Shown: piece after piece, positions 10,475 through 42,680 of the stretch
Position numbering within the stretch: the stretch's first letter is position 1
Layout: each line of letters opens with the position of its first letter
DNA from: Candidatus Hadarchaeum sp.
Lineage (GTDB): Archaea > Hadarchaeota > Hadarchaeia > Hadarchaeales > Hadarchaeaceae
Reading direction: 5' to 3'
DNA length: 42,919 nt
Assembly (NCBI GenBank): GCA_020725055.1
Contig: DYFS01000004.1
Coordinates: 1-42,919 of the forward strand
Notes under the pieces: generated by a model
The model's input: only the letters and a program-made list of their open reading frames with translations
Database searches by the model: none
What the model was told of the DNA's origin: nothing
Program-made: the position numbers and the translations under genes

Positions 10475-11704
10475 TCACCTTTTCAGTGTTTTTCGTGAGA
10501 CGTTCTCGGCGAGTATTTTTCCGCCCTTGATTACCCAGCGCCTGTCCGGTTGTATTCTAATAGCATCTTTCGGTGATGTGGCGTCGATTATCACAAGGTC
10601 GGCGCGCTTGCCCACAGCAATGCCATAATCGTCCAGCACCCCCAGCGTTCGGGCTGCGTTCGTCGTCGTCATCTTGAAGACAGCCTCAATCTCTTCGGGC
10701 GTCGTGAGCTGCGCGGCGTGGGCGCTTATGTTGGCGACCTCAAGCATGTCCGCCTTCCCGAATGGGTAGAAGGCATCGTTCACGCAGTCCTGCCCGAATG
10801 TCACGTTGACCCCCGCTGCGAGCAGCTCTTTCACGCGGGTGATGCCGCGCCTTATCGGCTGCTTGTCCCCGCGCCCTTGAATCACGAGGTTCGTCACAGG
10901 GTTTGTAATCATATTGATGTCCGCGAGCTTTACTTTTCGAATAACCTCGCGCGCGTAGTCGTCCGGGTAGGCCGCGAGCGCACACGTGTGGCCAGCGGTC
11001 ACCCTCCCTTGATAGCCTTCTTTGATCGTTTTTTCAGCGAGGTACTCGAGTGAGCGCGAGTTTGGGTCGTCTGTTTCGTCGACGTGCATATCTATGTTCG
11101 CGCCGAACTCCTTCGCGATTTCAAAACAGATGTCGATGTGGGGCCTCGCTTCCGAGTACGGGCGCTCGTGGTGCGGCATCCCACCGACCAAGTCCGCGCC
11201 GAGCCCCATAGCTTTCCTCATGAGCTCCTCCGTGCCCGGGTCTTGCAGAATCCCCTCCTGCGGGAAAGCAACAACTTGAATGTCCATGATGTTTTTGAAC
11301 CTCTCTCGAGCTGCCAGCAGCCCCCTGATGGGAGTCAGTCCGCCTATGGTGTCAACATCCGCATGCGTCCGCATCCTCGTTGTGCCGTTGAGGGCCGCGA
11401 GTTCGATTACCTTGTCCGCGCGCTTCACGATGTCGGCTACTGTATACTTACGCTTCTTCTCCCAGATGATCTCGATTGCTTCCTGTAGGGTGCCGGAGAC
11501 GTTCGGCCTGATGTCGTCGCCTATCATGCATTTATCCAAGTGGATGTGGGGGTCGATGAAGGCGGGTGAAACCAACATTCCCTCGGCGTCGATCACCTTC
11601 CGTGCTTTGCCCCGAATTTTACCTATCTTAGCGATTTTGCTACCCTCGATGCCGATATCCGTTAGCCCGCGTTCGCCCACGATATGTGCGTTTCGAATTA
11701 CCAA
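10475..11704 (-). CDS. codA: Cytosine deaminase (bacterial-type amidohydrolase)
   Basis: DPHIHLDK, VAFPQEG, HVDETDDP.SR, QGR.D..P.RRG.TRVKEL and GQD motifs; start uncertain (TTG 11704 or ATA 11710). Confidence 0.82.
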   Translation of the reverse strand: MVIRNAHIVGERGLTDIGIEGSKIAKIGKIRGKARKVIDAEGMLVSPAFIDPHIHLDKCMIGDDIRPNVSGTLQEAIEIIWEKKRKYTVADIVKRADKVIELAALNGTTRMRTHADVDTIGGLTPIRGLLAARERFKNIMDIQVVAFPQEGILQDPGTEELMRKAMGLGADLVGGMPHHERPYSEARPHIDICFEIAKEFGANIDMHVDETDDPNSRSLEYLAEKTIKEGYQGRVTAGHTCALAAYPDDYAREVIRKVKLADINMITNPVTNLVIQGRGDKQPIRRGITRVKELLAAGVNVTFGQDCVNDAFYPFGKADMLEVANISAHAAQLTTPEEIEAVFKMTTTNAARTLGVLDDYGIAVGKRADLVIIDATSPKDAIRIQPDRRWVIKGGKILAENVSRKTLKR

Positions 11705-11789
11705 GTCTATGACAATACCCCGTACGACTTATATCGAACTACTTATTAACGGCTGTAAAGTGGTTTTTGTTTCAAACTCGGGATAGACC

Positions 11790-12410
11790 CTAAATATATC
11801 CTCCCGATCTCATCCTCCCTTTCCTTACAAACAAGAGTGGGAACACGATGTCGCTCGTGCAGCACGGGACCCACACAGCTATGAAAAGCACCACGAACAT
11901 GAGCGGGAATATCGGGAGCCAGTCCACCACCCCGAACGCCATGAGGTAGAAGAGTGACGCCAATGTGCTTATCAACACGTGGGCCGCGTGCGGGCAGCGG
12001 GTCCAGCGCCCCGTCAAGGCCCCCAGCGCCGCCCCCACGAGCCCAGGTATGACAGCAAACCACGGGTGCGTTAGTAAACAAATGTGTAGTTCCATCTCGG
12101 CTCCAAGCAACGCTCCCCCCATGTAAGGGAATAAAATATCACTTATCATGCATATCCCCACTGCCCCCAAGAATCCGACGGCCACCGACCCCGTGAGTCC
12201 TCCTCGGTGCGACCTGAACATCGCAGCAGTCACGATTGAACTCAGCAGCATGTGGGCGGGGTACAAAAGGTGGAAGGAGTGGTGAGACACCTCTGGGTCA
12301 AGCCTCGCTAGGGACATGACAGCCATCACGACTACCCCTACTGCAGCCCCCAGGGCCGTGAAGGGTGCGTGCTCCTTGAGCTCAGCCGCGATGTGTTTAA
12401 GTCGACTCAT
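11790..12410 (-). CDS. Hypothetical His/Cys-rich integral membrane protein downstream of feoB
   Basis: About 6 TM segments; EHAPFT, PAH, HICL..H, PHAAHVLIS and VPCCTSDIVFP motifs; ATG at 12410. Confidence 0.7.
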   Translation of the reverse strand: MSRLKHIAAELKEHAPFTALGAAVGVVVMAVMSLARLDPEVSHHSFHLLYPAHMLLSSIVTAAMFRSHRGGLTGSVAVGFLGAVGICMISDILFPYMGGALLGAEMELHICLLTHPWFAVIPGLVGAALGALTGRWTRCPHAAHVLISTLASLFYLMAFGVVDWLPIFPLMFVVLFIAVWVPCCTSDIVFPLLFVRKGRMRSGGYI

Positions 12411-16766: not shown

Positions 16767-17591
16767 ATGAAGATTGTTTCAACCGAGCGCCCTGCCACAA
16801 AGGAAAAGCGGCAATACCACATCGCATGCGCCCCGGGGGAGGTCGCCCCCTGCGTGCTTTTGCCCGGCGACCCGGAGCGCGTGCCGAAGATCGCGCGCCT
16901 GTGGGACGAGGCCAAGAAAGTCGCTTACCACCGGGAGTATCAAACTTACACCGGCAAGGCTGGGGGAGTGCCGATCTCAGCAACTTCTACGGGCATAGGC
17001 TGCCCTAGCCTCGCGATAGCTGTCGAGGAGCTGGCGGCGGTTGGGGCCAACACCTTCATTCGGGTGGGAAGCTCTGGCAGCATACAACGGGATGTCAAGG
17101 TCGGGGATGTTGTGATCTCAAACGCTGCGGTCAGGCTGGAGGGGACGAGCAAGCAGTACGTGCGCGTCGAGTACCCCGCGGCGGCAAATTATGAGGTGCT
17201 GCTGGCATTAATTCAAGCTGCCGAGAAGCTCGGGCACCGCTACCACGTTGGGATAACCGCTTCGACCGACTCCTTCTACCTTGGTCAGGGCAGACCTGGC
17301 TTGGGCGGGTACACCCAATCGTTTGCGAAAGACGTAATGCAAGATCTGCAGGCAGCGCGGGTCATGAATTTCGAGATGGAGACTGCGTCGCTCTTCACGA
17401 TTGCTGGCGTTTATGGCTTCCGTGCAGGGAGCGTTTGTGCGATTTTCGCGAACCGCGTTACCGGCGAGTTCGGAGTTGGTGAGGGGGAAATGGCGAGTGC
17501 TGAAATCGCGACTGAGGCTGTAAAAATTTTGGCGAAGATGGACAATGAGAAACAAAAATCTAAGAAAAGGCATTGGGTACCCTCTGTTTAG
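16767..17591 (+). CDS. udp: Uridine phosphorylase (NP-I family)
   Basis: QYHI, LPGDPERV, REY, STGIG.PS..IAVEEL, RVGSSG, SFY.GQGR and NFEME motifs. Confidence 0.9.
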   Translation: MKIVSTERPATKEKRQYHIACAPGEVAPCVLLPGDPERVPKIARLWDEAKKVAYHREYQTYTGKAGGVPISATSTGIGCPSLAIAVEELAAVGANTFIRVGSSGSIQRDVKVGDVVISNAAVRLEGTSKQYVRVEYPAAANYEVLLALIQAAEKLGHRYHVGITASTDSFYLGQGRPGLGGYTQSFAKDVMQDLQAARVMNFEMETASLFTIAGVYGFRAGSVCAIFANRVTGEFGVGEGEMASAEIATEAVKILAKMDNEKQKSKKRHWVPSV

Positions 17592-17609: not shown

Positions 17610-18770
17610 ATGAGGGGCGTTGCAATCATAGGCTGCGGGATGACAAAATTTGGGCGTCGGGAGGAAGACCTGGTAGAGCTGCTCGCCGAGGCCTCGCTAC
17701 GCGCGATCGAACACGCGGGAGTCAGCGATAAAGATTTCGATTCGGTTTACGTGGGGAACATGATGGCTGGAGAACTCGTCCACCAGACTGCCATCGCGAG
17801 CTCTTTGGTTGACCGAATTAACCTCGCCCCCGCCGCCGCTGAGCGAGTCGAGAACGGTCCAGCCTCAGGGGCCTCCGCCTTCAAGAATGGACTTCTGGCT
17901 GTAGCATCCGGTGCAGCAGACTTGGTGCTCGCCGCGGGCGGGGAGAAGATGACGGCTGCGGACACCGATGTCATCACCGACTTAGTTTCAACGATGACCC
18001 ATCCCATTGCAGAGTATGTGCACGGGGTGACCCTACCCGCGATGGCTGCTATGCTTGCCCGCCTCTATATGGAGCGCTACGGCCTTACCGAGCGCCACCT
18101 AGCCATGGTCGCCGTGAAAAATCACACCAACGGGATGAAGAACCCCTACGCCCACATCCAGAGGTTATGCACGGTTGAGGGCGCCATGAGTTCGGGCGTG
18201 ATTGCGGATCCCATACGGCTTTACTACGCCTGCCCCATTAGCGACGGTGCCGCAGCCGTGGTCCTGTGCCCATTGGAGAAAGCCCGGGAATTCACAGATA
18301 AGCCGATTCGAATCGCCGGCTTCGGGCATGCGACCGATGTGCAAACCCTCCAGGAGCGGGAGGACCCCGCTGTGCTCAAATCTGTCAAGATAGCCTCGCA
18401 GCAAGCGTTCAAAATGGCCAAGCTTACGCCAAAGGACATAGATGTTGTGGAGTTGCATGATGCATTCGAAATCTTGGAAATAGTGCAGAGTGAGGACGCT
18501 GGGTTCTTTGAGAAAGGAAAGGGGCATCTGGCGGTTGAAAAGGGCGTGACCGCGCTCGATGGCGAGTTGCCGATCAATCCTTCGGGCGGACTGAAGGCCA
18601 AGGGACATCCTGTAGGGGCTACTGGTGTAGCCCAAATAACCGAACTCGTCTGGCAGCTGCGGGGTGAGGCGGGGGAGCGACAGGTCAAAGATCCCAAGCG
18701 GGCTTTCGCGTGCAACTTTGGTGGGTTTGGGAATAACACTGTCATTCACATTTTGGAAAGGGCGTGGTGA
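17610..18770 (+). CDS. Thiolase-superfamily (SCP2/archaeal type) protein lacking the nucleophilic Cys
   Basis: GMTKFG, VKNH.NG..NPYAH, DGAAA, VELHDAF and NPSGGL..KGHPVGATG present; RVE..CASG reads RVENGPASG. Confidence 0.85.
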   Translation: MRGVAIIGCGMTKFGRREEDLVELLAEASLRAIEHAGVSDKDFDSVYVGNMMAGELVHQTAIASSLVDRINLAPAAAERVENGPASGASAFKNGLLAVASGAADLVLAAGGEKMTAADTDVITDLVSTMTHPIAEYVHGVTLPAMAAMLARLYMERYGLTERHLAMVAVKNHTNGMKNPYAHIQRLCTVEGAMSSGVIADPIRLYYACPISDGAAAVVLCPLEKAREFTDKPIRIAGFGHATDVQTLQEREDPAVLKSVKIASQQAFKMAKLTPKDIDVVELHDAFEILEIVQSEDAGFFEKGKGHLAVEKGVTALDGELPINPSGGLKAKGHPVGATGVAQITELVWQLRGEAGERQVKDPKRAFACNFGGFGNNTVIHILERAW

Positions 18771-18771
18771 G

Positions 18772-19119
18772 ATGCAGGAAAAATTCATGGGGTTCAAGTG
18801 TAGAAAATGCGGCCGGGTGATGTACCCCCGCCATGACCGCTGTCTGAGCTGTAGAGGCAGGGAGTTCGAGGAGGCAGAACTGGGAAAGGAGGCCGCACTT
18901 GTAACATATACAAAGGTCTATGCTATTCCCGAGGGGATTGAAATGCCGCCGCTGGTGCTCGGGATAGTTGAGTTCCCGGGAGGCGTCAGAGCGATGGGGC
19001 AACTTACTACAGACGACCCGAAAATTGGGGTGAAGCTCCGCCCCGTATGGGGGAAGCTCCGCAAAATAGGTGAAAAAGAGGTTTACGGGTTCAAGTTCGA
19101 GCCAGTCGAAAAAGGTTAA
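18772..19119 (+). CDS. DUF35 family Zn-ribbon/OB-fold protein (thiolase partner)
   Basis: CRKC...P...CLSC ribbon followed by an OB fold; ATG at 18772, 1 nt after the thiolase stop. Confidence 0.88.
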   Translation: MQEKFMGFKCRKCGRVMYPRHDRCLSCRGREFEEAELGKEAALVTYTKVYAIPEGIEMPPLVLGIVEFPGGVRAMGQLTTDDPKIGVKLRPVWGKLRKIGEKEVYGFKFEPVEKG

Positions 19120-19154
19120 ATGTTTTGCCATGAGAAAAAAACGGAGGGATTGTG

Positions 19155-19748: not shown

Positions 19749-19780
19749 TCCTCGCAGAGCAAGGCCTTCTGGGGTTTATT

Positions 19781-22080: not shown

Positions 22081-22084
22081 CTCC

Positions 22085-32659: not shown

Positions 32660-32711
32660 CCTACCCCATCTCTGTCGAGTAAGGGGAATTAAAAAGTTTA
32701 TGCCAAAAGCT

Positions 32712-33412: not shown

Positions 33413-33484
33413 TTTTGGTTCACATTTGTCTATTTATTGACTTTTTTATTTAAATTTTTGGATGCGGATGCAGGGGGGCCAAAT

Positions 33485-34642
33485 TTGACCCGCTTCAGGT
33501 TTAACCGAATAGAGCTCGCTGGCTCCCTCGGCGACTTGGGGACAATGCTGCCACTGCTAATCCCTCTAGTCGTGATAAACGGGGTCAACGCCACGATAGC
33601 CCTGCTTTTAGTTGGGCTCTTCTATCTGGGGGCTGGGCTCTATTACAAGATCCCGGTCCCGGTGCAACCGCTCAAGGTTATGACAGTAATCGCCATCACT
33701 GGGGGCTTCTCCGCCCAGATGATTGCCGCTGCAGGATTAATCATGGGCATTTTCATGCTGTTTTTGGGTGCGACGGGACTAATCGACCAAGTCGCCAAGG
33801 TGTTTTCAAAACCGGTCGTTCTGGGGATACAGGTTGCTCTCGGCATTCTCCTGTTCATGAAGGGTGTCCAGTTTATCCTAAACTCAAAGCTGTTCGTCAG
33901 CGGTGAAACTGTCCTCCTCACAGGGGTTCCGCTAAATCCCATAGCCGGCTTGGCTGGCATGTTGATCGCGGCGCTTCTCCTCACAAATAGAAAAATCCCA
34001 GCGGCGATCGTGTTGGTCCTCTTCGGGTTTTTGGTCGGCTTAGCCCTCAAGCCCCCAAGCCTCACCTTTGGACCGCAAATTTCTCCCCCACAAGTGCCAA
34101 CGATGGCCGACCTCCAAGCAGCGTTTTTGTTTCTGGTCATCCCCCAGATTCCGGTCACGCTTTCCAACGCTGTGATCGCGACCTCCGACCTCGCCAAGAA
34201 GTACTATGGAAAGAGGGGCAGGAAGGCTTCTCCCCGGGCGCTCACCAGCACCATTGGGGCCGCAAACCTGGCTGCGGGAGGGCTGGGCGGCATGCCGATG
34301 TGCCACGGGGCCGGGGGCTTGGCCGCGCACTACCGCTTCGGAGCAAGGACCGGTGGAGCAAATCTGATAATCGGTGGAATTTTCGTGGCATTGGCCCTGA
34401 TATTCGGCTCAAGCGCAGTTTCTGTCCTCGGGGCTATTCCCCTATCAATTTTGGGCGTTCTCTTGGTGATCACAGGGATTCAACTGATGATGTTGGCTAT
34501 TAATGTCAGGGAACAAAAGGACTTTCTTGTGGTGTCAGTGATTGTGGGCCTATCCGTGGTCGTAAACATGACAGTCGCTTTTATGGCTGGCATAGTACTT
34601 CACTATATGCTGAAGTGGTGGAGCCCATGGTCAAGCGGGTGA
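33485..34642 (+). CDS. MOT1-family putative molybdate/sulfate transporter
   Basis: ELAGSLGDLGT..P, P.PVQP.K, PQIP.T..NA.IAT and PMCHGAGGLAAHYRFGARTGGA; TTG at 33485 after GGGGGG. Confidence 0.88.
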   Translation: MTRFRFNRIELAGSLGDLGTMLPLLIPLVVINGVNATIALLLVGLFYLGAGLYYKIPVPVQPLKVMTVIAITGGFSAQMIAAAGLIMGIFMLFLGATGLIDQVAKVFSKPVVLGIQVALGILLFMKGVQFILNSKLFVSGETVLLTGVPLNPIAGLAGMLIAALLLTNRKIPAAIVLVLFGFLVGLALKPPSLTFGPQISPPQVPTMADLQAAFLFLVIPQIPVTLSNAVIATSDLAKKYYGKRGRKASPRALTSTIGAANLAAGGLGGMPMCHGAGGLAAHYRFGARTGGANLIIGGIFVALALIFGSSAVSVLGAIPLSILGVLLVITGIQLMMLAINVREQKDFLVVSVIVGLSVVVNMTVAFMAGIVLHYMLKWWSPWSSG

Positions 34643-35601
34643 AAGCCGAGGACGCAATCGGGAAGCGGCTTGCCCACGATGTTGTCCGCTACGGGCCCGG
34701 GCTCAAGTCCGTCCTGTTCAAGAGGGGGCATGTGATCACTATCGCGGACGTGGAGCGGCTGAAAGACACCGGGAATTACTCCGTCTACGCCGCAGGGAGG
34801 GGGGAAGAGGGGGTCCACGAGGACGAAGCTGCGACTAGGATGGCTCAGGCTTCGGCGGGTGAAAACGTTTTTTGGGTGAGACCAAACCAGGGAAAAGTAA
34901 ACTTGCTTGCAAAGGTCCCCGGGCTCTTGAAGGTCAAGGCCGATGTCATCAAGCAGATCAATCTCATCGATGATTTCATTTTCTCCACCCGGCCCAACTA
35001 CACAGGGGTTAAAAAGGGAGGGCTCGTGGGCTCCGTCAAGATAGTTCCGCTGATGGTGGGCGGGGGCCGCATGAGGAAGGTGGAAGAAATCTTGAAACGA
35101 AACAAGCCCGTCCTCAAGGTGACCCCCACAAAGGTCAAGAAGATTGGTATCGTTATAACAGGAACTGAGGTTTACGAAAAAAGGATAAAGGACGCTTTCC
35201 TGCCGGCCCTGAGGGAGAAACTCGCGGGCTACGGTTTGAAGGTTCGGGAAACAGTCGTTGTGCCAGACGACGAGGAAAAAATAAGAGAGAAAATCATCGG
35301 CTTCAAGCGGGAGGGCTGTGAACTCATCTTGGTCGCGGGCGGGATGGCGGTCGACGCAGGGGATGTTACACCAGCCGCGATAAGGAAAACCGGTGCAGAA
35401 GTCATCTCACGCGGCGTCCCGGTCTTCCCTGGCTCTATGATGATGCTCGCCTACCTCGGCAGCACGGCGATTATGGGCCTCCCCGCGTGCGTGTTCGTCG
35501 ACAAGCGAACGAGCTTTGACCTGCTCCTGCCGCGGGTCCTTGCGAAGGAAAAAGCAACGAAGGCCGAGCTCGCGGAACTCGGGCACGGTGGGCTACTGTG
35601 A
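34627..35601 (+). CDS. Molybdopterin-binding protein (MoeA-like)
   Basis: AIG..LAHD, HEDEAA, TGTEV....I.D.F, GGM.VD..D.TP and PV.PG.M motifs. Confidence 0.82.
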   Translation: MVKRVKAEDAIGKRLAHDVVRYGPGLKSVLFKRGHVITIADVERLKDTGNYSVYAAGRGEEGVHEDEAATRMAQASAGENVFWVRPNQGKVNLLAKVPGLLKVKADVIKQINLIDDFIFSTRPNYTGVKKGGLVGSVKIVPLMVGGGRMRKVEEILKRNKPVLKVTPTKVKKIGIVITGTEVYEKRIKDAFLPALREKLAGYGLKVRETVVVPDDEEKIREKIIGFKREGCELILVAGGMAVDAGDVTPAAIRKTGAEVISRGVPVFPGSMMMLAYLGSTAIMGLPACVFVDKRTSFDLLLPRVLAKEKATKAELAELGHGGLL

Positions 35602-36158
35602 TAGGCGCTATCGTGCTTGCCGCTGGTGAGTCGAAGCGGATGGGCGAGCCGAAGCCGCTTGTCAAAATCAAAGGTAAGCGCATGATCGAGTGGGTAATCT
35701 GTTCCTTCGAGGGCACGGCCGATGATATAATCGTCGTGTTGGGGCATGAACCAGAGGCCGTAAAGCCGGTGCTGGAGAAGCTCGGGGTGCAGTGGGTGGT
35801 GAACGAAAATTACCACGAGGGAATGGCTTCCTCGTTCAAGAAGGGTCTCAAAGAACTTGAGGGTTGTGACGCGGTTTTTTTGGCGTTAGGGGACCAGCCG
35901 CTCATCGATCGAGATTTTTTGAAAAGGGCAATTGGTGTTTGGAAAGGCGGAGCGAAAATCGTAAGCCCGGTGTACAAAGGGAAGAAAGGGCACCCAGTTC
36001 TCTTTGATAAAAGTTTATTCAGCGAAATTCTCTCACTTAAAAAACAAGAGACAGTTCGAGATATCATTCACCGACACACCGGCGAGCTTCAACTCATCGA
36101 AGCAGAAAAATGGGCCCTTGTAGACATCGACACGCCCGGAGACCTTCAAAAGATTTGA
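35598..36158 (+). CDS. mocA: Molybdenum cofactor cytidylyltransferase (MocA-like NTP transferase)
   Basis: LAAG.S.RMG.PK, GM..S...G, LGDQP, GHPV.F and DIDTP.D motifs; XDH context. Confidence 0.82.
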   Translation: MIGAIVLAAGESKRMGEPKPLVKIKGKRMIEWVICSFEGTADDIIVVLGHEPEAVKPVLEKLGVQWVVNENYHEGMASSFKKGLKELEGCDAVFLALGDQPLIDRDFLKRAIGVWKGGAKIVSPVYKGKKGHPVLFDKSLFSEILSLKKQETVRDIIHRHTGELQLIEAEKWALVDIDTPGDLQKI

Positions 36159-36169
36159 AAGTTTCGTGA

Positions 36170-36985
36170 TCAACAGGGGTGTTTAGTTCCAGACGCTTTT
36201 CTCTTCTCTTTTATCAGCTCAGCTGCTATGCTCACGGCTATCTCTTCAGGCGTTTTCGCGTTTATGTCGAGGCCGATCGGAGCTTTTATCCTCTTTATCG
36301 CCTTTGCCAGCACCCTATCCTTTCGCAAAACCTCTTTCAGTTTGGCGATTTTGCGCGCGCTCCCGAGCAGGCCGAGGTAAGCCGTTCGCTCGCGGACGAA
36401 TCTGCGCAGGGCAGCGAGGTCGTGTTTCGGCTCCCCATGCACAATCGCCACGCAGGTGCGCCCATCGACCTTCACCTCTTTCAAAGCTTTTTCAAAATCC
36501 TCGCGATAAACTAGCTTCGCGTTCGGGAATCGGCTTTTTGTCAGGGTGTCTTCGTTGTCGTCAACCACTGTTATGTCAAAACCCAAGAGGTCGGCCACGG
36601 TGTAAGTTGGGAGAGCTATATGGCCGGAGCCGACGATCACCAACTTGGGCTTTGGCTCGACCACGTCCACGAACACCGTCATCGCCCCACCACACCACAA
36701 CCCCGTATCCAACTCACCCTCCTTTGCCCCGCCATAAAAGGAGAACTTCAAGCTCCTCGACTTACCCCCCCTAATCGCCTTCAGCGCCTCTTGCCTGAGC
36801 CCCCTCTCGAAGCACTCGCCACCGCCTATTGTTCCGATGATTTCCCCGTCCTCGGTAACAAGCATCTTCCTTCCCGGCTCGGCTGGCCCTGAGCCTATTT
36901 TCTCCACCACAGTGCAGAGCGCCACTCTCTTCCCCTCCTCCAGGAGTTTTGGGAGCCGTTCGAAAATGTTTACAGGGTTTGACAT
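36170..36985 (-). CDS. xdhC: XdhC/CoxI family xanthine dehydrogenase accessory protein
   Basis: GS.P...G.KM.V, GTIGGG, CGG, GSGHIA, YLG.LGS.RK and PIGL.I...TPEEIAVSI.AE. Confidence 0.9.
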   Translation of the reverse strand: MSNPVNIFERLPKLLEEGKRVALCTVVEKIGSGPAEPGRKMLVTEDGEIIGTIGGGECFERGLRQEALKAIRGGKSRSLKFSFYGGAKEGELDTGLWCGGAMTVFVDVVEPKPKLVIVGSGHIALPTYTVADLLGFDITVVDDNEDTLTKSRFPNAKLVYREDFEKALKEVKVDGRTCVAIVHGEPKHDLAALRRFVRERTAYLGLLGSARKIAKLKEVLRKDRVLAKAIKRIKAPIGLDINAKTPEEIAVSIAAELIKEKRKASGTKHPC

Positions 36986-36996
36986 CCTCCCCCACC

Positions 36997-37518
36997 TCAC
37001 TTCTTCTTCCTCGCCGCCGCCAGGTAGCCACCGTGCCGTGCCCTAACGTCCAATATCGTGTAAAAAGCGTCCTTGTCGTGGGTCTTGAGCAAGTTCAAGA
37101 ATCTCCGCGTCTCCCTCCTCTCAAATAGCACGTTGTAGATCGGCTGCACCCCCTCCAGGCCAAGCCCCTCGACGACCGTGACCCCGAAGCCGGCGCCCCT
37201 GAGTTTTTGCGCGAGCCCCATATTCTTCGGCACCACGTGGGCGAAAACGTACCCCAACGCGATTTTTTCTTCGATGAGGCTCCCGAGGTAATTTCCGGTG
37301 GCGAAGCCAGCGGCAAACGCAAACATGTAATAGATCTTATCCAGCTGTGTGATCACACGGCTTACCGCGAGCACCCAAATCAATATCTCAAAGAAAGCTG
37401 TTAATGAGGCCACGTTCCTCTGCCCCCTGAAAATCAAAATTTGCCGGGTTGTGCCCATCGAAACATCGGTCATCCGGGCTAGGAAAATTGCAAGACTCCA
37501 GAGGAAGGCTTCGAGCAT
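36997..37518 (-). CDS. DUF2179/DUF5698 (UPF0316) membrane protein
   Basis: IFLAR..DVS.GT.R, FFE..IW, GFATGNYLG..IEE and P-II-like C-terminal GFGVT...G.G. Confidence 0.85.
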   Translation of the reverse strand: MLEAFLWSLAIFLARMTDVSMGTTRQILIFRGQRNVASLTAFFEILIWVLAVSRVITQLDKIYYMFAFAAGFATGNYLGSLIEEKIALGYVFAHVVPKNMGLAQKLRGAGFGVTVVEGLGLEGVQPIYNVLFERRETRRFLNLLKTHDKDAFYTILDVRARHGGYLAAARKKK

Positions 37519-39221: not shown

Positions 39222-39686
39222 TTGCCGTACGTGTACTGTGACCCGAAGCTATGCACCGGTTGCAGGGCCTGCGAACTCGTTTGCGTTGGTTTTCACGAGC
39301 GTGTGTTTAACCCTAAGATAGCGCGCATCCGCGTGGTGAGATCCGAGCCAGCTTCGGATATCACGATCACGTGCCACCAATGCGAAGACCCCCCATGCGT
39401 GAAGGTATGCCCAGCTGGCGCCATCCGCAAGCTCAAGAGCGGCTTGGTTGAGGTCATCGATGCCCGCTGCGTGGGCTGCGGCGTGTGTGCCGAGGCATGC
39501 CCGTTCGGGGCGATCTGGCTGCACCACGAGCGGGGGAAAGCGACAAAGTGCGACCTGTGCGGCGGTGACCCCCAGTGCATCAAGCATTGTGTACCCGGTG
39601 CGCTGAAGCTTACGGCACCTGAGGGGGTAGCCATCGAAAGGCGCTTCGCAGCCGCGGTGCGCCGAGCGCCGGAGCGCGGGGGATGA
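39222..39686 (+). CDS. 4Fe-4S dicluster (poly)ferredoxin, AOR small-subunit-like
   Basis: Four cluster motifs CxxCxxCxxxC, CHQC..PPC..VCP, CVGC..C..ACP and KCDLC...P.C..HC. Confidence 0.92.
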   Translation: MPYVYCDPKLCTGCRACELVCVGFHERVFNPKIARIRVVRSEPASDITITCHQCEDPPCVKVCPAGAIRKLKSGLVEVIDARCVGCGVCAEACPFGAIWLHHERGKATKCDLCGGDPQCIKHCVPGALKLTAPEGVAIERRFAAAVRRAPERGG

Positions 39687-39690
39687 GGAA

Positions 39691-41622
39691 ATGGCATTCA
39701 CCTACAAAGGTTACGCTGGCAAATACCTGCGCGTTGACCTCACGCGGGGCAAGACCCTCGAGCTCGAGCTACCGAAGGAGTGGGCGCGCGGCTACATAGG
39801 AGGGAGCGGGATGGGGGCGCGCATCTTGTACGATGAGGTGCCGCGCAACGTTGGGCCCCTCTCCCCAGATAACATTTTGATTTTCGCGACGGGCCCGGTG
39901 ACCGGCACGGCGTACCCGCCCTCCGGGCGCTACTGCGTCGTCACCAAGGCGCCGCTGACTGGCATTTGGGGCGAGGCTCACTCGGGCGGCTACTGGGGCC
40001 CCGAGCTGAAGTACGCCGGCTACGACCTGATTATCATCCGGGGGAGGGCGCCGAGGCCCATGTACCTTTTCATCGAGGACGGCAAAGTAGAGCTGCGCGG
40101 TGCTAAACGGCTCTGGGGTAAAAACACCGCGGAGACGACTGACGCTATCGAAGGAGAACTGGGCCGCGATGTGAGGGTTGCGTGCATCGGCATGGCTGGC
40201 GAGCGACTCGTGAAGTTCGCGTGCATAATAAACGAGCGCAGCAGGGCGGCAGGGCGGACCGGCGTTGGGGCGGTGATGGGGAGCAAGCGCTTGAAGGCGG
40301 TTGTGGTGCGCGGCAGCGGCAGCATCGAGGTCGCGAACTTCGACCGGGTCTGGGAGCTGACCAAGGAGGCGCACGAGCGGTACACCGGGGGCGAGTGGGG
40401 GAAGGCATCACACGACGCCCTCTACCGGTTCGGGACTCCGGGGCTGGTGAGCTGGGAGAATGAGATAGGCCGCCTGCCGACGAAGGGGCACCGCACCGGC
40501 GTCTTCGACCGGGCCGCGGATATAGGCCCGGAGGTCTTCGAGCGCGAGTTCATAATCCACCGCCGCTCCTGCATGAACTGCCGCATCCAGTGCAAGAAGG
40601 TCGCCAGGGTGGGGCGCTCCGGCCCGTACGCCGGCTTGATAACCGAGGGCCCGGAGTACGAGACCATCGTCGCGCTCGGCTCGAACTGCTTGGTCAGCAA
40701 TTTCCCCGCTGTGATGCAGGTAAACCAGCTCTGCAATCTGCACGGCATGGACACGATTTCATGCGGGGGGGCGGTGAGCTTCGCGATGGAGTGTTTCGAG
40801 CGCGGCGCTTTGAGCGAGCGCGACATAGGCTTCGCGCTGGGGTGGGGGGATGGGGATGCGATGGTCAGGCTCGTTGGGATGATGGCGTCGCGCGAGGGGG
40901 TGGGCGATGTCCTCGCGGAGGGTATTAGAGCCGCGGCGAAGCGCATAGGCAAGGGCTCGGGGCGGTGGGCGATTCAGGTGAAGGGGCTTGAGGCCTCTGG
41001 GCAAGACGGCAGGGCCCACCAATCGGTCGGGCTGACCCACGCCATCTCGGTGATAGGGGCCGCTCACCTGCGGGCGCTTTCCTCTCTCGATGAGCTCGAC
41101 TACAGGAAGACTATAACCGAGCGGTACGGCAAGGCAAGAGCCGCGGCGCTTGGTGACCGACTCTCAACGAAGTACAAAGGGATGCTCGTCAAGGATGTCG
41201 AGGACCTCTACGCGGTGGTCGACGCGCTTATCACCTGCAAGTACGGCACGATGTGGCCGCCGATCTTCTACTTTGAGGACTACGCTGAGATCCTGCCCGC
41301 TGTCACGGGTGTCGAGGAGTTCGGGAGCGTCAAGGAACTTCGAATCATCGCCGAGCGCATCGTCAACCTCAAGCGCGCCTTCAACGCTAGGCTTGGTCTG
41401 GGCCGCAAGGACGACACGCTGCCCGAGCGCATGCTGAAGGAGCCGATGCCAGAGGGGCCGGCAAAGGGCAGGGTGGTCGACCTGAAGCCGATGCTGGACG
41501 AGTACTACCGCGAGCGGGGGTGGGACGTTCGCACGGGGTTGCAACGCCGCGCTACTCTCGAGCGGTTTGGGCTTGCCGACGTTGCGCGGGATTTAAAGAG
41601 GGTAGGCGCCCTAGCAAAATAG
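39691..41622 (+). CDS. Aldehyde ferredoxin oxidoreductase family (tungsten/molybdopterin) enzyme
   Basis: GY.GK.LRVDL, KAPLTG, GR.G.GAVMGSK.LKA, CxxCxxxC, GPEYET, GMDTIS and D.LP.R motifs. Confidence 0.93.
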   Translation: MAFTYKGYAGKYLRVDLTRGKTLELELPKEWARGYIGGSGMGARILYDEVPRNVGPLSPDNILIFATGPVTGTAYPPSGRYCVVTKAPLTGIWGEAHSGGYWGPELKYAGYDLIIIRGRAPRPMYLFIEDGKVELRGAKRLWGKNTAETTDAIEGELGRDVRVACIGMAGERLVKFACIINERSRAAGRTGVGAVMGSKRLKAVVVRGSGSIEVANFDRVWELTKEAHERYTGGEWGKASHDALYRFGTPGLVSWENEIGRLPTKGHRTGVFDRAADIGPEVFEREFIIHRRSCMNCRIQCKKVARVGRSGPYAGLITEGPEYETIVALGSNCLVSNFPAVMQVNQLCNLHGMDTISCGGAVSFAMECFERGALSERDIGFALGWGDGDAMVRLVGMMASREGVGDVLAEGIRAAAKRIGKGSGRWAIQVKGLEASGQDGRAHQSVGLTHAISVIGAAHLRALSSLDELDYRKTITERYGKARAAALGDRLSTKYKGMLVKDVEDLYAVVDALITCKYGTMWPPIFYFEDYAEILPAVTGVEEFGSVKELRIIAERIVNLKRAFNARLGLGRKDDTLPERMLKEPMPEGPAKGRVVDLKPMLDEYYRERGWDVRTGLQRRATLERFGLADVARDLKRVGALAK

Positions 41623-41657
41623 AAGGGGTATCATAATAATCAAAAAGAGGTGATCTG

Positions 41658-42680
41658 ATGGTCGAGCTCTACGGCAAGGATTTCATAACGACGCAGGACT
41701 GGAGCGTCGATGAGCTGGTGCACGCGATAAAAGTTGCCAGAAAATTCAAGGACATCGTGAAGAAAGGCGGGCGCCCGCCGAGGGTCTTGGACCGCAAGAA
41801 TTTCTTCATGCTTTTCTATGCCCCGTCGACCAGGACGCGGGGGGCGTTCGAGGCGGCGGCGTCGATTTTGGGGGGCCACCCCGCCTTCATAGACGTTTCA
41901 ACCACCCGGATGGAGGAGGCCGTGAAGGACGCCGCCAAGATGTACGACTCGTACGCGGATGGGATTGGGGTGAGGATTCTGGACAAATACATCGACTTCG
42001 TCTACGGCGCTGGGTACAAGGTCGTCGCCGAGTTTGCACGGGTCGCGAAGGTGCCGGTGATCAACATGGCGTGCTGTACCTACCACCCGACGCAGGGGCT
42101 CGGGGACATCATGACCGTAGAGAACAAAATCGGCAAGGTGAGGGGGAAGAAGTACACGATAACTTGGGCCTACTCGAGCAAGCCTCGCGGGCGCTGCAGC
42201 ATCCAGGAAGAAGTGCTAATCGCGACGCGCTTCGGAATGGATGTCGTGCTCGCACACCCGAAGGGCTTCGAGATCGACCCGACAATTGTCGGGGCGGCGA
42301 AGCGGAACGCGAAGGAGAGCGGGGGCGGCTTCAAGATAAGTAACGATTTTGAGGAAGGGCTCGAGGGCGCGAACGTCGTGTTCCCGCGGAGCTGGGGCAC
42401 TTCGGAATTCCTCAGGGTCGGGGCGACGAAATTCGGCGTGGGCAAGGAGGTCGCGGTCTACAACAAGCACAAGGACTGGAGGCTAGATCAGCGCCACGTC
42501 GAAGACCTAATGGCCAAGCCGGCGATCGTCACGCACGTGTTGCCTGTGATGCGCGGCGAGGAGGCGACGGACGAGGTCATGGACGGGCCGAACTCCGTCA
42601 TCTACGAGCAGGCGGACGACAACTTCTACGCGAAGATGGCCTCGATTGCCCTGACCATGGCGAAAGAAGTGCCGCTTTGA
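41658..42680 (+). CDS. Ornithine carbamoyltransferase-superfamily enzyme, YgeW/ArgF'-like
   Basis: PSTRT carbamoyl-phosphate motif, HPTQ, TWAYS, SWG and HVLP (in place of HCLP). Confidence 0.85.
   Translation: MVELYGKDFITTQDWSVDELVHAIKVARKFKDIVKKGGRPPRVLDRKNFFMLFYAPSTRTRGAFEAAASILGGHPAFIDVSTTRMEEAVKDAAKMYDSYADGIGVRILDKYIDFVYGAGYKVVAEFARVAKVPVINMACCTYHPTQGLGDIMTVENKIGKVRGKKYTITWAYSSKPRGRCSIQEEVLIATRFGMDVVLAHPKGFEIDPTIVGAAKRNAKESGGGFKISNDFEEGLEGANVVFPRSWGTSEFLRVGATKFGVGKEVAVYNKHKDWRLDQRHVEDLMAKPAIVTHVLPVMRGEEATDEVMDGPNSVIYEQADDNFYAKMASIALTMAKEVPL

What the first reader, a model, noticed from the sequence alone, without database searches (positions are those of the whole stretch)
10475..42680. 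Candidate undescribed anaerobic oxidative pyrimidine/nucleobase catabolic pathway in an archaeon
Seen: within ~32 kb are cytosine deaminase, uridine phosphorylase, a three-subunit xanthine-dehydrogenase-family molybdoenzyme with maturation genes, a cyclase-family amidohydrolase, the FdrA/DUF1116/DUF2877 trio, a two-subunit CoA-transferase, a Cys-less thiolase plus DUF35, an AOR and a YgeW-like carbamoyltransferase. Known: XDH-family enzymes hydroxylate uracil to barbiturate in the oxidative pyrimidine pathway. E. coli FdrA/YlbE/YlbF lie in the allantoin locus and have been linked to oxalurate to oxamate + carbamoyl phosphate conversion. YgeW belongs to anaerobic purine catabolism. Inference: cytosine/uridine are converted to uracil, then to barbiturate (XDH). 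Ring opening by the cyclase follows, then phosphorolytic carbamoyl removal from a ureido-acid, then CoA-dependent handling of the C3 skeleton. This would be an energy-conserving route for feeding on nucleic-acid debris. A purine or other N-heterocycle substrate is the alternative.
Basis: partly seen in the sequence, partly recalled or inferred. Interest (0 to 1): 0.85.

Follow-up and report, generated by a model that had tools for sequence, protein, structure and literature searches.

The report
Probable anaerobic uracil-to-carbamoyl-phosphate gene module
A small uncultured archaeon carries a conserved set of genes, also found in many anaerobic bacteria, that most likely oxidises uracil, opens the ring and splits off carbamoyl phosphate, a route I did not find in print.

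Summary
The window is a whole contig of a 1.09-Mb Hadarchaeia genome. Not all 32 kb belongs together: FeoB, the iron repressor, topoisomerase IB and a NERD protein are bystanders.

The core is real and conserved. Of 80 loci fetched through AllG, 67 hold the cyclase, 67 AllF, 51 XdhM/XdhS and 41 XdhL. In 61 Hadarchaeia genomes AllG, cyclase, window-type XdhL and a GNAT-fold protein are present or missing together.

Accessory genes in bacterial versions point to uracil and malonate:
- a uracil-permease equivalog above its cut-off;
- an amidase nearest malonamidase E2;
- a ligase reaching the malonyl-CoA-synthase cut-off;
- CodA-like deaminases and carbamate kinase.

XdhL has Ala where bovine xanthine dehydrogenase has Glu802. 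E. coli's proven oxalurate enzyme AllG lies outside the cyclase-linked clade.

Best reading (about 0.5): uracil to barbiturate, to ureidomalonate, to malonamate plus carbamoyl phosphate. The archaeon lacks the amidase. It has instead a CoA-transferase, a Cys-less thiolase-like protein with DUF35, and the GNAT-fold protein. No enzyme was assayed. My 10 literature searches found no description, but one paper on the purine rival was unreadable.

The parts
10475..11704 (-). CodA-like amidohydrolase (probable cytosine deaminase); loosely attached member
   Evidence: Amidohydro_3, E 4e-49. NCBIfam cytosine deaminase PRK07572, 409 bits, below the cut-off of 438. Homologues lie in 7-8 of the 80 AllG loci, next to the NCS2 permease in L087 and L083.
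16767..17591 (+). Uridine phosphorylase; first gene of the + strand operon
   Evidence: TIGR01718, 301.9 bits, above the cut-off of 280.3. A 77%-identical partial copy lies beside AllH in G053. A second paralogue is on C52.
17610..18770 (+). Thiolase-like protein without the nucleophilic cysteine (motif ENGPASG)
   Evidence: PRK06064, 461.7 bits, above the cut-off of 420. Pro stands where the mevalonate thiolase on C28 has Cys. The same motif is in 5 of 6 Hadarchaeal cluster copies examined (the sixth was read on the wrong strand) and in the Coriobacteriales locus L058.
18664..19119 (+). DUF35 (zinc ribbon plus OB fold, ChsH2-type). The true start is probably near 18770.
   Evidence: OB_ChsH2_C, E 2.2e-9; zf-ChsH2, E 4.7e-7. 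It follows the thiolase-like gene in L058 and in the Hadarchaeal regions.
19152..19748 (+). GNAT-fold protein of a rare family ('unk198'); faithful neighbour of AllH and AllG
   Evidence: No Pfam hit. Only 44 representative clusters in 1.84 billion proteins. AlphaFold2 pLDDT 91.9. Foldseek top hit 1yre_B, E 1.5e-8, followed by many GNATs. Found in 26 of 61 class genomes, 23 of them shared with AllG.
19703..20710 (+). AllH/DUF2877-type subunit
   Evidence: PF11392, E 9.9e-25.
21286..23053 (-). Family-I CoA-transferase, subunits B (21286-22080) and A (22085-23053)
   Evidence: PF01144, E 2e-35 and 1e-32. Adjacent to AllG in L011, G016, G022, G053 and G012. Homologues of subunit A at 75% identity or more are in 6 of 61 class genomes.
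23103..24506 (-). AllG/DUF1116-type subunit
   Evidence: PF06545, E 8e-96. 47-48% identical to E. coli YahG and YlbE.
24488..26167 (-). AllF/FdrA-type subunit (succinyl-CoA-synthetase-alpha-like)
   Evidence: NF004760 FdrA, 473.8 bits, above the cut-off of 433.
26190..27020 (+). Cyclase-family metal hydrolase; proposed ring-opening amidohydrolase
   Evidence: PF04199, E 8.9e-36. HIGTHLDAPRH metal motif. In 67 of 80 AllG loci with a median identity of 62%.
29004..32755 (-). Three-subunit molybdenum hydroxylase: XdhS 29004-29471, XdhM 29472-30329, XdhL 30326-32755
   Evidence: Pfam hits. Below every NCBIfam equivalog cut-off. It is the only XDH-family enzyme in the genome. Bovine Glu802 is Ala here. 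The catalytic-Glu motif GIGEHP is present.
32996..33412 (-). TFX-type regulator upstream of xdhL (possible regulator)
   Evidence: TFX_C, E 1.3e-16. A weak homologue lies in the G032 cluster.
33389..37000 (.). Molybdenum supply and cofactor maturation: MOT1 transporter 33389-34642(+), MoCF_biosynth protein 34615-35601(+), MocA-like transferase 35598-36158(+), XdhC 36170-37000(-)
   Evidence: Pfam hits. XdhC is in 35 of 80 loci. MocA, the MoeA-like gene and XdhC lie beside XdhL in G032.
39222..42680 (+). Ferredoxin 39222-39686, AOR 39691-41622 and OTC/AOTC-like carbamoyltransferase 41658-42680: a separate block, linked only by co-occurrence
   Evidence: A paralogous carbamoyltransferase-ferredoxin-AOR block is on C29. 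The carbamoyltransferase lies beside AOR in 6 of 30 class loci, beside AllF in 1, and is shared with AllG in 22 genomes.

Best explanation
The window holds the archaeal version of a widespread anaerobic module for breaking down uracil by an oxidative route.

**Proposed steps (all inferred; none assayed)**
1. Uridine phosphorylase and a CodA-like deaminase deliver uracil.
2. The three-subunit molybdenum hydroxylase XdhLMS hydroxylates C6 to give barbiturate. Electrons go to an unknown acceptor.
3. The cyclase-family metal hydrolase opens the ring to ureidomalonate. This acylurea is one carbon longer than oxalurate.
4. The AllF/AllG/AllH-type enzyme splits it with phosphate into carbamoyl phosphate and malonamate.
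5. Carbamate kinase can turn the carbamoyl phosphate into ATP. In this genome, where no carB was found, it could equally feed arginine and pyrimidine synthesis.

**The C3 remainder**
- Bacterial versions finish with a malonamidase-like amidase or a CN-hydrolase, followed by a malonyl-CoA-synthase-like ligase or a family-III CoA-transferase.
- The Hadarchaeia version has none of these. It has a family-I CoA-transferase, a Cys-less thiolase-like protein with DUF35, and a GNAT-fold protein. I propose these convert the C3 acid or amide to acetyl-CoA as CoA esters. This last part is the least certain.
For: **Co-location**
- Among 80 loci fetched through AllG: cyclase 67, AllF 67, XdhM 51, XdhS 51, XdhL 41, XdhC 35.
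- ORF clustering of the same loci: amidase 46, CoxG 24, NCS2 permease 23, AllH 21, PucR 11, AMP-ligase 8, family-III CoA-transferase 8, CodA-like 7.
- The AllG loci span several phyla: Hadarchaeota, Chloroflexota, several Bacillota families, Coriobacteriales, Thermoproteota, Bathyarchaeota and Elusimicrobiota, though not every locus holds the other genes.

**Co-occurrence in 61 Hadarchaeia genomes**
- AllG is in 26, cyclase in 24 (22 shared with AllG).
- XdhL at 74% identity or more is in 18, and 17 of those have AllG.
- The GNAT-fold protein is in 26 (23 shared with AllG).
- Compact clusters occur: G016 has CoA-transferase B/A, AllG, AllF, XdhLMS and cyclase within about 10 kb. G053 has Udp, AllH, MOT1, CoA-transferase, thiolase-like, GNAT, AllG and AllF.

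**Pointers to the substrate**
- The L073 permease is a uracil-permease equivalog (612.7 bits, cut-off 477). The L087 and L047 permeases score highest for uracil permease, then RutG, then xanthine permease.
- The L042 ligase scores 565.8 bits for malonyl-CoA synthase (cut-off 558). The L016 ligase scores 545.
- The eight best solved-structure matches of the amidase are all malonamidase E2 (163 bits).
- Isocitrate lyase and malate synthase sit inside the operon in 3 loci, which fits a C2 end product.
- Carbamate kinase lies in L087 and L054.

**Enzyme features**
- XdhL has Ala at bovine Glu802. The Chloroflexota XdhL has Ile there.
- The catalytic-Glu motif is kept.
- The cyclase metal motif is kept in 60 of 62 sequences.
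- In the quick tree, E. coli AllG (YlbE), the proven oxalurate enzyme, lies outside all cyclase-linked AllGs.
- AllFGH chemistry on an acylurea is established for oxalurate (PMC11326118; I read the abstract and outline only).

**Lifestyle.** The genome has AMP phosphorylase and a RuBisCO large subunit, which fits feeding on nucleotides.
Against: - No activity has been measured for any protein of the module.
- The XdhL of the Chloroflexota loci is only about 30% identical to the window's. Only 6 Bacillota loci reach 46-49%. Two XDH subfamilies are therefore involved and might act on different substrates.
- The nearest solved structure to XdhL is 4-hydroxybenzoyl-CoA reductase alpha, 389 bits against 268 for bovine XDH.
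- PucR regulators (11 of 80 loci) are named after purine catabolism.
- The ligase evidence is borderline. One of 3 tested ligases passes the cut-off, and the model is of 'subfamily' type.
- The amidase is only moderately close to malonamidase E2. The next structure scores 149 bits.
- The family-III CoA-transferases score almost as well for CoA:oxalate CoA-transferase (303-348 bits) as for their best family.
- The window genome has no amidase, CN-hydrolase, NCS2 permease or MatB-like ligase (tblastn). Uptake and the fate of malonamate are unexplained there.
- Its carbamate kinase sits in the arginine operon.
- 54 of the 75 locus AllG rows in the tree fall in one clade that is Chloroflexota apart from one Bacteroidota-labelled record, so the raw counts overstate independence.
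- Schaedlerella (L087) has the AllHFG-cyclase-permease-CodA-carbamate kinase set with no XDH within 10 kb.
Confidence: 0.5

Rival explanations
1. A purine route of the clostridial 'xanthinase' type. XDH interconverts purines and xanthine. The cyclase is the metal-dependent xanthine amidohydrolase. The AllFGH-type enzyme removes the ureido group of 4-ureido-5-imidazolecarboxylate as carbamoyl phosphate. CodA-like amidohydrolases act on aminoimidazole or imidazolone.
For: - The cluster holds an XDH-family enzyme, PucR-family regulators in 11 of 80 loci and NCS2 permeases.
- As of 2012 the genes of this pathway were unknown in C. acidurici (PMC3519856, passages read).
- A 2025 paper says the cluster was identified in 2023 in Clostridia and Bacilli (PMC12507026, passages read). 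I could not read that 2023 paper, so I cannot exclude that it names these families.
- Tissierellia and Peptostreptococcaceae loci carry the module.
Against: - XdhL has Ala or Ile where xanthine enzymes have Glu802.
- It stays below every XDH equivalog cut-off.
- The best-scoring permease family is uracil permease, once above its cut-off.
- The malonyl-CoA-synthase-like ligase, malonamidase-like amidase and glyoxylate-shunt genes have no role in a route that ends in glycine.
- No decarboxylase or formiminotransferase recurs among the 150 of 226 unlabelled neighbour proteins that I scanned.
Confidence: 0.13
2. An oxalurate route, as in E. coli. The AllFGH-type enzyme is a true oxamic transcarbamylase. 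XDH and the cyclase make oxalurate from another ureide, for example a parabanate-like trione. The amidase then hydrolyses oxamate, and the CoA enzymes activate oxalate.
For: - Oxalurate is the only proven substrate of this enzyme family (PMC11326118, abstract).
- The window AllG is 48% identical to E. coli YlbE.
- The family-III CoA-transferases score 303-348 bits for CoA:oxalate CoA-transferase.
- Malate synthase in 3 loci could point to glyoxylate.
Against: - No allantoinase, allantoate amidohydrolase, ureidoglycine aminohydrolase or ureidoglycolate dehydrogenase recurs in the neighbourhoods.
- YlbE lies outside all cyclase-linked AllGs on a long branch, whereas YahG joins them (quick tree only).
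- The ligase matches malonyl-CoA synthase, and the amidase is nearest malonamidase E2.
- I know of no XDH-type reaction that yields a parabanate-like precursor (inference).
Confidence: 0.12
3. Catabolism of another N-heterocyclic or aromatic acid as its CoA ester. A CoA-transferase activates the acid. The 4-HBCR-like molybdoenzyme hydroxylates or dehydroxylates the acyl-CoA. The thiolase-like protein with DUF35 cleaves a side chain, as in BbsAB or Ltp2-ChsH2.
For: - The nearest solved structure of XdhL is 4-hydroxybenzoyl-CoA reductase alpha (389 bits). NCBIfam 4hydrxCoA_A scores 567 bits, close to the best hit of 585.
- CoA-transferases, the thiolase-like protein, DUF35 and a GNAT-fold (CoA-binding) protein are all in the archaeal cluster.
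- The benzoylsuccinyl-CoA thiolase subunit is among the structural relatives of the thiolase-like protein.
Against: - XdhM is 285 aa and matches the 4-HBCR beta profile only in two pieces at 153 bits (cut-off 404.55). The cluster-bearing insertion of that enzyme therefore seems absent.
- 567 bits is far below the 994.55 cut-off.
- This reading gives no role to the cyclase plus the AllFGH-type carbamoyl chemistry, which are the most conserved parts.
- Most bacterial versions have no thiolase-like gene (5 of 80 loci).
Confidence: 0.1

Closest known systems
Oxidative pyrimidine pathway of aerobic bacteria (uracil/thymine dehydrogenase, barbiturase, ureidomalonase; recalled from the literature and mentioned in passing in PMC12507026)
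   Same: The proposed intermediates are the same: uracil, barbiturate, ureidomalonate. The first step is likewise carried out by a molybdenum-iron-flavin hydroxylase.
   Different: - No barbiturase (AtzD/TrzD family) homologue was found, although the control for that search was silent.
- A cyclase-family hydrolase is proposed to open the ring instead.
- The ureido group would leave as carbamoyl phosphate by phosphorolysis, not as urea by hydrolysis.
- The host is an anaerobe.
E. coli oxamic transcarbamylase AllFGH with carbamate kinase AllK (Kim and Kim 2024, PMC11326118)
   Same: The three protein families are the same: FdrA, DUF1116 and DUF2877. The chemistry is the same: acylurea plus phosphate gives amide plus carbamoyl phosphate. 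Carbamate kinase is a partner in some bacterial loci.
   Different: - AllG is 48% identical to the E. coli protein and falls outside the E. coli YlbE branch.
- There is no allantoin gene context.
- The subunit boundary is YahF/YahG-like: the AllG N-terminus matches the FdrA C-terminus.
- The genes are split over two convergent operons.
- A GNAT-fold gene is an extra partner.
E. coli yahE-yahF-yahG-yahI-yahJ cluster (uncharacterised; annotation seen)
   Same: It has a DUF2877, FdrA-like, DUF1116 trio in the same order as the Bacillota clusters, plus a carbamate-kinase-like gene and a CodA-related amidohydrolase. YahG joins the Bacillota cyclase-linked AllG clade with support 92 in the quick tree.
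   Different: No cyclase or XDH gene is annotated in the 14 kb shown. YahG sits on a long branch. I found no function for it in print (listing read only).
Reductive uric acid (2,8-dioxopurine) pathway: XdhD, YgfK, SsnA, HyuA, YgeW, YqeA (PMC12507026; bioRxiv 10.1101/2025.04.24.650524)
   Same: The logic is the same: an XDH-family enzyme, ring-opening amidohydrolases, a ureido group released as carbamoyl phosphate, and carbamate kinase.
   Different: - The carbamoyltransferase there is YgeW of the OTC fold, not FdrA/DUF1116/DUF2877.
- No YgfK, SsnA, HyuA, YgeX or YgeY homologue recurs in these neighbourhoods.
- The product there is diaminopropionate and pyruvate.
Ltp2-ChsH2(DUF35) aldolase and KS-Q / GNAT-type malonyl decarboxylases (recalled, not tested)
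   Same: These are precedents for thiolase-fold proteins without the nucleophilic Cys working with a DUF35 partner, and for Cys-less condensing-enzyme folds or GNAT folds that decarboxylate malonyl thioesters.
   Different: No sequence-level membership was shown here. This is a lead for the role of the archaeal accessory genes only.

Membership tests
Oxamic transcarbamylase AllFGH (E. coli type) | Three subunits of the FdrA, DUF1116 and DUF2877 families | tested here: met
   NF004760 FdrA 473.8 bits (cut-off 433); PF06545 E 8e-96; PF11392 E 9.9e-25.
Oxamic transcarbamylase AllFGH (E. coli type) | Orthology with E. coli AllG (YlbE) | tested here: inconclusive
   48% identity. In the quick tree YlbE lies outside all 81 other rows on a branch of 2.4-2.6 changes per site. 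The careful tree did not finish.
Oxamic transcarbamylase AllFGH (E. coli type) | Allantoin-pathway context (allB, allC, allD, allE) and an adjacent carbamate kinase | tested here: not met
   No such family recurs in the 80 neighbourhoods. In the window genome the carbamate kinase is on contig C39 at the end of the arginine operon. Carbamate kinase is in the cluster in 2 of 80 loci.
Oxamic transcarbamylase AllFGH (E. coli type) | Activity on oxalurate or oxamate | not testable with these tools
   Needs an enzyme assay.
Xanthine dehydrogenase (purine hydroxylase) | Molybdopterin, FAD and 2x[2Fe-2S] subunits, with the catalytic Glu | tested here: met
   Pfam domains. GIGEHP motif at the C-terminus. 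The identity of the motif with bovine Glu1261 is recalled, not tested.
Xanthine dehydrogenase (purine hydroxylase) | Substrate-binding Glu802 and Arg880 (bovine numbering, recalled) | tested here: not met
   The HMMER alignment to bovine chain 3sr6_C puts Ala at Glu802 (GGGFGGKA) and Ala at Arg880, with an Arg one residue earlier.
Xanthine dehydrogenase (purine hydroxylase) | NCBIfam equivalog cut-offs (XdhA, PucD, XdhB-type) | tested here: not met
   585.1 bits against 780; 573.9 against 916; 466 against 783.65; 336.4 against 849.5.
4-Hydroxybenzoyl-CoA reductase | Alpha subunit above the family cut-off; beta subunit with the extra Fe-S insertion | tested here: not met
   Alpha: 567.1 bits against 994.55. 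Beta: 153.3 against 404.55, matched in two pieces, and the protein is 285 aa against a profile of 321 positions. It is nonetheless the nearest solved structure.
Classical oxidative pyrimidine pathway | Barbiturase of the AtzD/TrzD family | tested here: inconclusive
   PF09663 found nothing in G000, but it also rang in none of the 14 control genomes.
Cyclase family (kynurenine formamidase / isatin hydrolase) | Pfam PF04199 and the HxGTHxDxPxH metal motif | tested here: met
   E 8.9e-36. HIGTHLDAPRH in the window. The motif is in 60 of 62 cluster cyclases.
Cyclase family (kynurenine formamidase / isatin hydrolase) | Arylformamidase equivalog | tested here: not met
   TIGR03035, 52.9 bits against a cut-off of 223.05.
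YgeW knotted carbamoyltransferase | NCBIfam YgeW equivalog cut-off | tested here: not met
   143.7 bits against 453 and 141.8 against 500. The best family is N-acetylornithine carbamoyltransferase, 219.5 against 288. The best solved structure is P. furiosus OTC, 166 bits.
Thiolase (acetoacetyl-CoA thiolase of the archaeal mevalonate pathway) | Nucleophilic cysteine; neighbour of HMG-CoA synthase | tested here: not met
   Pro replaces Cys (ENGPASG against EAACASG in the C28 paralogue). HMG-CoA synthase lies beside the other thiolase on C28.
GNAT acyl-CoA N-acyltransferase superfamily (gene at 19152-19748) | GNAT fold | tested here: met
   AlphaFold2 pLDDT 91.9, pTM 0.89. 358 Foldseek matches at E 0.001 or below, led by GNAT proteins with TM about 0.5-0.6. 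No Pfam hit by sequence.

The most novel reading that the evidence does not exclude
The module is a complete, undescribed, energy-conserving anaerobic uracil fermentation. It would also supply the genes for two orphan steps: a uracil dehydrogenase and a non-homologous barbiturase.

In Hadarchaeia and Coriobacteriales the three proteins that replace the amidase and ligase are the Cys-less thiolase-like protein, DUF35 and the rare GNAT-fold protein. Together with a CoA-transferase they would convert malonamate or malonate to acetyl-CoA without spending ATP. One uracil would then yield both carbamoyl phosphate and acetyl-CoA, each worth one ATP.

In an archaeon without carbamoyl-phosphate synthetase, the same module would double as the source of carbamoyl phosphate for arginine and pyrimidine synthesis.
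Probability: 0.2. Interest if true: 0.88.

Novelty: new variant of a known kind. Interest (0 to 1): 0.77.

Why it matters
If right, it matters in five ways.

- **A fifth route for pyrimidine breakdown.** It would join the reductive, Rut, URC and aerobic oxidative routes, and would be the first oxidative one for anaerobes. It seems common in Anaerolineae, Clostridia and several uncultured archaeal groups of sediments, digesters and guts.
- **A second substrate for a poorly known enzyme family.** FdrA/DUF1116/DUF2877 has thousands of members and one proven reaction. This would also give a lead for E. coli yahEFG-yahIJ.
- **Genes for orphan activities.** It would link genes to uracil dehydrogenase and to a new kind of barbiturate-opening enzyme.
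- **Archaeal physiology.** Hadarchaeia already carry the AMP-phosphorylase/RuBisCO pentose route. This would explain how they could also use the base moiety of nucleic-acid debris.
- **Directly testable.** Every step can be tested with purchasable substrates.

Tried and rejected
**Tried without a useful result**
- Complex prediction of AllH (alignment A5) with the GNAT-fold protein (alignment A3): 'no answer', score 0.01 against a mark of 0.32. It counts neither for nor against binding.
- Barbiturase family search in the genome: nothing found, and the control was silent, so it is uninformative.
- Census of 150 of the 226 unlabelled neighbour proteins. I aligned them only to use the tool's batch mode (A4). 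No further family recurred in more than 4 members. Single Carboxyl_trans and OAD_beta hits were not located. I first guessed that the 526-aa and 440-aa operon genes of L050, L063 and L086 were those decarboxylase subunits. They are malate synthase and isocitrate lyase.
- The careful AllG tree did not finish in 288 s. Only the quick tree is reported.
- I did not build an XdhL tree with characterised references, because I had no allowed source for their sequences.

**Readings I dropped**
- That thiolase plus DUF35 is the mevalonate-pathway enzyme. A second, Cys-bearing thiolase lies beside HMG-CoA synthase on C28.
- That AOR is a specific member of the module. It has 9 paralogues.
- That topoisomerase IB belongs to the module. 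It is found in genera without AllG.

**Literature**
- None returned a paper that links a cyclase, FdrA/DUF1116/DUF2877 and XDH, or that describes ureidomalonate phosphorolysis.
- The library lacks most subscription journals. Supplements are closed, so Supplementary Fig. S1 of PMC12507026 and the supplements of PMC12625717 were not seen.
- Tong et al. 2023 (Cell Chem Biol) was not held.

Full report
**What is in the window.**
The window is a whole contig (C27) of a 1.09-Mb assembly in 53 contigs, rated 90% complete. The nearest AllG and XdhL relatives come from Hadarchaeia and Hadarchaeota MAGs.

- a CodA-like amidohydrolase at 10475-11704;
- uridine phosphorylase at 16767-17591, above its equivalog cut-off;
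- a thiolase-like gene at 17610-18770, followed by a DUF35 gene;
- AllH/DUF2877 at 19703-20710;
- a two-subunit family-I CoA-transferase at 21286-23053;
- AllG/DUF1116 at 23103-24506 and AllF/FdrA at 24488-26167;
- a cyclase-family hydrolase at 26190-27020;
- XdhS/M/L at 29004-32755;
- a molybdate transporter, two cofactor genes and XdhC at 33389-37000;
- ferredoxin plus AOR at 39222-41622, and a carbamoyltransferase at 41658-42680.

Interspersed are FeoB, an IdeR/FeoA repressor, an AAA kinase, a TIM-barrel protein, a NERD protein, a eukaryote-type topoisomerase IB and an ABC pair.

**Corrections to the observation.**
- The carbamoyltransferase is not YgeW-like. It scores highest for N-acetylornithine and ornithine carbamoyltransferases, below their cut-offs.
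- The thiolase-like protein does lack the nucleophilic cysteine. It reads ENGPASG where the genome's other thiolase reads EAACASG. That other thiolase sits beside HMG-CoA synthase on C28.
It has no Pfam hit and only 44 representative clusters among 1.84 billion proteins. It folds with pLDDT 91.9 into a GNAT fold.

**Is the grouping more than chance?**
I fetched 80 loci through AllG from one-genome-per-species contigs, with up to 10 kb on each side.
- By tblastn with the window's proteins: cyclase in 67, AllF in 67, XdhM and XdhS in 51 each, XdhL in 41, XdhC in 35.
- By ORF clustering, families the window lacks: an amidase-signature protein in 46 loci, CoxG in 24, an NCS2 permease in 23, PucR regulators in 11, an AMP-forming ligase in 8, a family-III CoA-transferase in 8 and a CN-hydrolase in 3.
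- Many loci are short contigs, so these counts are minima.
- The loci are not independent. 54 of the 75 locus AllG rows in the tree fall in one clade that is Chloroflexota apart from one Bacteroidota-labelled record.

Two stereotyped bacterial architectures appear:
- Chloroflexota: permease, CoxG, XdhC, XdhM, XdhS, amidase, AllF, AllG, cyclase, XdhL, AllH, ligase.
- Bacillota: XdhM, XdhS, XdhL, permease, PucR, AllH, AllF, AllG, cyclase, CN-hydrolase and/or family-III CoA-transferase, XdhC.

**Relatives of the window's organism.**
I searched a sample of 61 Hadarchaeia genomes.
- AllG is in 26.
- The cyclase is in 24, of which 22 also have AllG.
- XdhL at 74% identity or more is in 18, of which 17 also have AllG.
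- The GNAT-fold protein is in 26, of which 23 also have AllG.
- Whole genera have none of these genes.

Regions fetched from ten relatives show the same genes reshuffled.
- G016: CoA-transferase B/A, AllG, AllF, XdhLMS and the cyclase with nothing in between.
- G022: XdhLMS, AllF, AllG, CoA-transferase.
- G053: uridine phosphorylase, AllH, molybdate transporter, CoA-transferase, thiolase-like, GNAT, AllG, AllF.
- G032 adds the cofactor genes and an AMP-ligase.
- A Coriobacteriales locus (L058) has GNAT, thiolase-like (same ENGPASG motif, 53% identical), DUF35, AllH, AllF and XdhM/S.

**Which substrate?**
AllFGH was shown in 2024 to be E. coli's oxamic transcarbamylase. It splits oxalurate into oxamate and carbamoyl phosphate (PMC11326118; abstract and outline read). 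Ureidomalonate, the product of barbiturate ring opening, is the next higher homologue of oxalurate. This is established chemistry that I recall, not a result of a call.

Several independent annotations of accessory genes point to uracil and malonate.
- The permease of a Peptostreptococcaceae locus passes the uracil-permease equivalog cut-off (612.7 against 477). Two others rank uracil permease above RutG and above xanthine permease.
- One cluster ligase passes the malonyl-CoA-synthase subfamily cut-off (565.8 against 558). A second just misses it (545). A third, from Coriobacteriales, does not resemble it.
- The amidase's eight best solved relatives are all malonamidase E2.
- CodA-like proteins lie beside the permease in several loci.
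- Three Anaerolineales operons include isocitrate lyase and malate synthase, as expected if the carbon ends as acetyl-CoA.
- Carbamate kinase is in the Schaedlerella locus and one other.

**The molybdoenzyme.**
XdhL is the genome's only XDH-family enzyme and stays below every NCBIfam equivalog cut-off.
- In the HMMER alignment to bovine xanthine oxidase it keeps Gln767 and Phe914. It has Ala at Glu802 and Ala at Arg880, with an Arg one position earlier (residue numbers recalled).
- The C-terminal GIGEHP matches the catalytic-Glu loop (motif recalled).
- Its nearest solved structure is 4-hydroxybenzoyl-CoA reductase alpha (389 bits, against 300 for quinoline oxidoreductase and 268 for bovine XDH).
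- However, the FAD subunit lacks the extra segment of that enzyme's beta subunit.

One caveat matters. The XdhL of the Chloroflexota clusters is only about 30% identical to the window's and reads GGGFGPKI at the Glu802 loop. Six Bacillota loci carry a 46-49% identical XdhL reading GGGFG[GS]KA. By contrast the cyclase has a median identity of 62% and AllG 56%. The downstream pair is therefore the conserved heart, and two XDH lineages feed it.

**Relation to the E. coli enzymes.**
The window AllG is 48% identical to YlbE (the proven AllG) and 47% to YahG. In a quick maximum-likelihood tree YlbE lies outside all other rows on a very long branch. YahG joins the Bacillota cyclase-linked clade with support 92. 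The careful search did not finish and long branches make this provisional.

The split between the window's AllF and AllG follows YahF/YahG: the N-terminus of AllG matches the C-terminus of the FdrA profile. A second, paralogous AllG-cyclase pair exists in seven class genomes, with AllG 48-50% and cyclase 38-43% identical to the window's. The four copies I fetched (G010, G019, G027, G036) lie beside thiolase-like, DUF35 and GNAT genes, with no AllF detected nearby.

**The archaeal ending.**
By tblastn the window's genome has no homologue of the bacterial amidase, CN-hydrolase, NCS2 permease, malonyl-CoA-synthase-like ligase or family-III CoA-transferase. In their place are the family-I CoA-transferase, the Cys-less thiolase-like protein with DUF35 and the GNAT-fold protein.

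From recalled precedents (the Ltp2-ChsH2 aldolase, Cys-less condensing enzymes and GNAT-type malonyl decarboxylases) I propose that they handle malonamate or malonate as CoA esters down to acetyl-CoA. No result here tests that proposal.

**Fate of carbamoyl phosphate.**
The only carbamate kinase (446 bits, above the cut-off of 358) closes an argG-argH-argC / argJ-argB-argD-argF operon on C39. No carB was found in this 90%-complete genome, although the same search rang in all 14 controls. The module could therefore serve biosynthesis as much as ATP formation. AMP phosphorylase and a RuBisCO large subunit are present, which fits nucleotide scavenging.

**The periphery.**
AOR has 9 paralogues. 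The carbamoyltransferase has a paralogue on C29 beside another ferredoxin-AOR pair. Across 30 class loci it lies:
- downstream of AOR in 6;
- beside the ABC pair in 6;
- beside AllF in 1 (G042);
- beside an XdhL paralogue in 1.

It is present in 26 of 61 genomes, 22 of which also have AllG. I treat it as a possibly related but separate block.

**Known or new?**
Ten literature searches found no paper that joins these families or describes phosphorolysis of ureidomalonate.

The main blind spot is the 2023 paper that identified the clostridial xanthinase gene cluster. It is cited in PMC12507026, of which I read passages, but I could not read it. If its enzymes were these families, the purine rival would win.

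On present evidence I rate the uracil route at about 0.5, purine at 0.13, oxalurate at 0.12 and another heterocycle or aryl-CoA at 0.1. The remainder is unassigned.

Noticed in passing
window 27375-28952 (-): A eukaryote-type topoisomerase IB (Topoisom_I_N, Topoisom_I and Topo_C_assoc domains) sits between the cyclase and the XDH operon. The family is in 39 of 61 Hadarchaeia genomes sampled, including genera without the module. It also lies next to the cyclase in G009, G018 and G028.
   Followed up: partly
G000 contig C39 13312-23117 (locus L008): An arginine operon (argG, argH, argC, then argJ, argB, argD, argF) ends in a true carbamate kinase. No carbamoyl-phosphate synthetase large subunit was found in the 90%-complete genome. 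The source of carbamoyl phosphate in this organism is therefore open.
   Followed up: partly
G000 contigs C14, C29 (two copies), C33, C37, C39, C45, C52 and window 39691-41622: There are nine AOR paralogues in a 1.09-Mb genome, several with an adjacent 4Fe-4S ferredoxin gene.
   Followed up: no
L122 (G010 C6), L123 (G019 C2), L124 (G036 C1), L125 (G027 C152): A second, paralogous AllG (48-50% identical) lies beside a cyclase (37-40% identical by tblastn) in L122 and L123, and in all four loci is preceded by thiolase-like (ENGPASG), DUF35 and the GNAT-fold gene. No AllF was detected nearby. In G019 a ferredoxin-AOR pair lies inside this cluster. It may serve a different substrate.
   Followed up: partly
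G030 C6, G013 C7, G026 C2, G027 C171, G010 C5 (coordinates): Paralogues of the OTC-like carbamoyltransferase (39-51% identical) lie within 0.2 to 2 kb of XdhL paralogues (36-40% identical) in one genus. This pairing recalls XdhD with YgeW in E. coli and hints at further heterocycle pathways in Hadarchaeia. G030 alone has 11 XdhL-like matches.
   Followed up: no
L121 (E. coli K-12, 335925-342507): The uncharacterised yahE-yahF-yahG-yahI-yahJ cluster has the same subunit order as the Bacillota clusters, plus a carbamate-kinase-like gene and a CodA-related amidohydrolase. YahG groups with the cyclase-linked Bacillota AllG clade in the quick tree.
   Followed up: partly
L050, L063, L086 (Anaerolineales): Malate synthase and isocitrate lyase genes occupy the place that the NCS2 permease holds in sister loci, inside the XDH-amidase-AllFG-cyclase operon.
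   Followed up: partly
window 7483-10478: Two PHP-domain proteins flank a histidine kinase and a receiver-only response regulator. This is an uncommon arrangement for such a small archaeal genome.
   Followed up: no
21 of the 80 AllG loci, e.g. L032 11450-11995: A '23S rRNA intervening sequence protein' family gene (PF05635) is inserted between AllG and the cyclase in many Anaerolineales operons.
   Followed up: no
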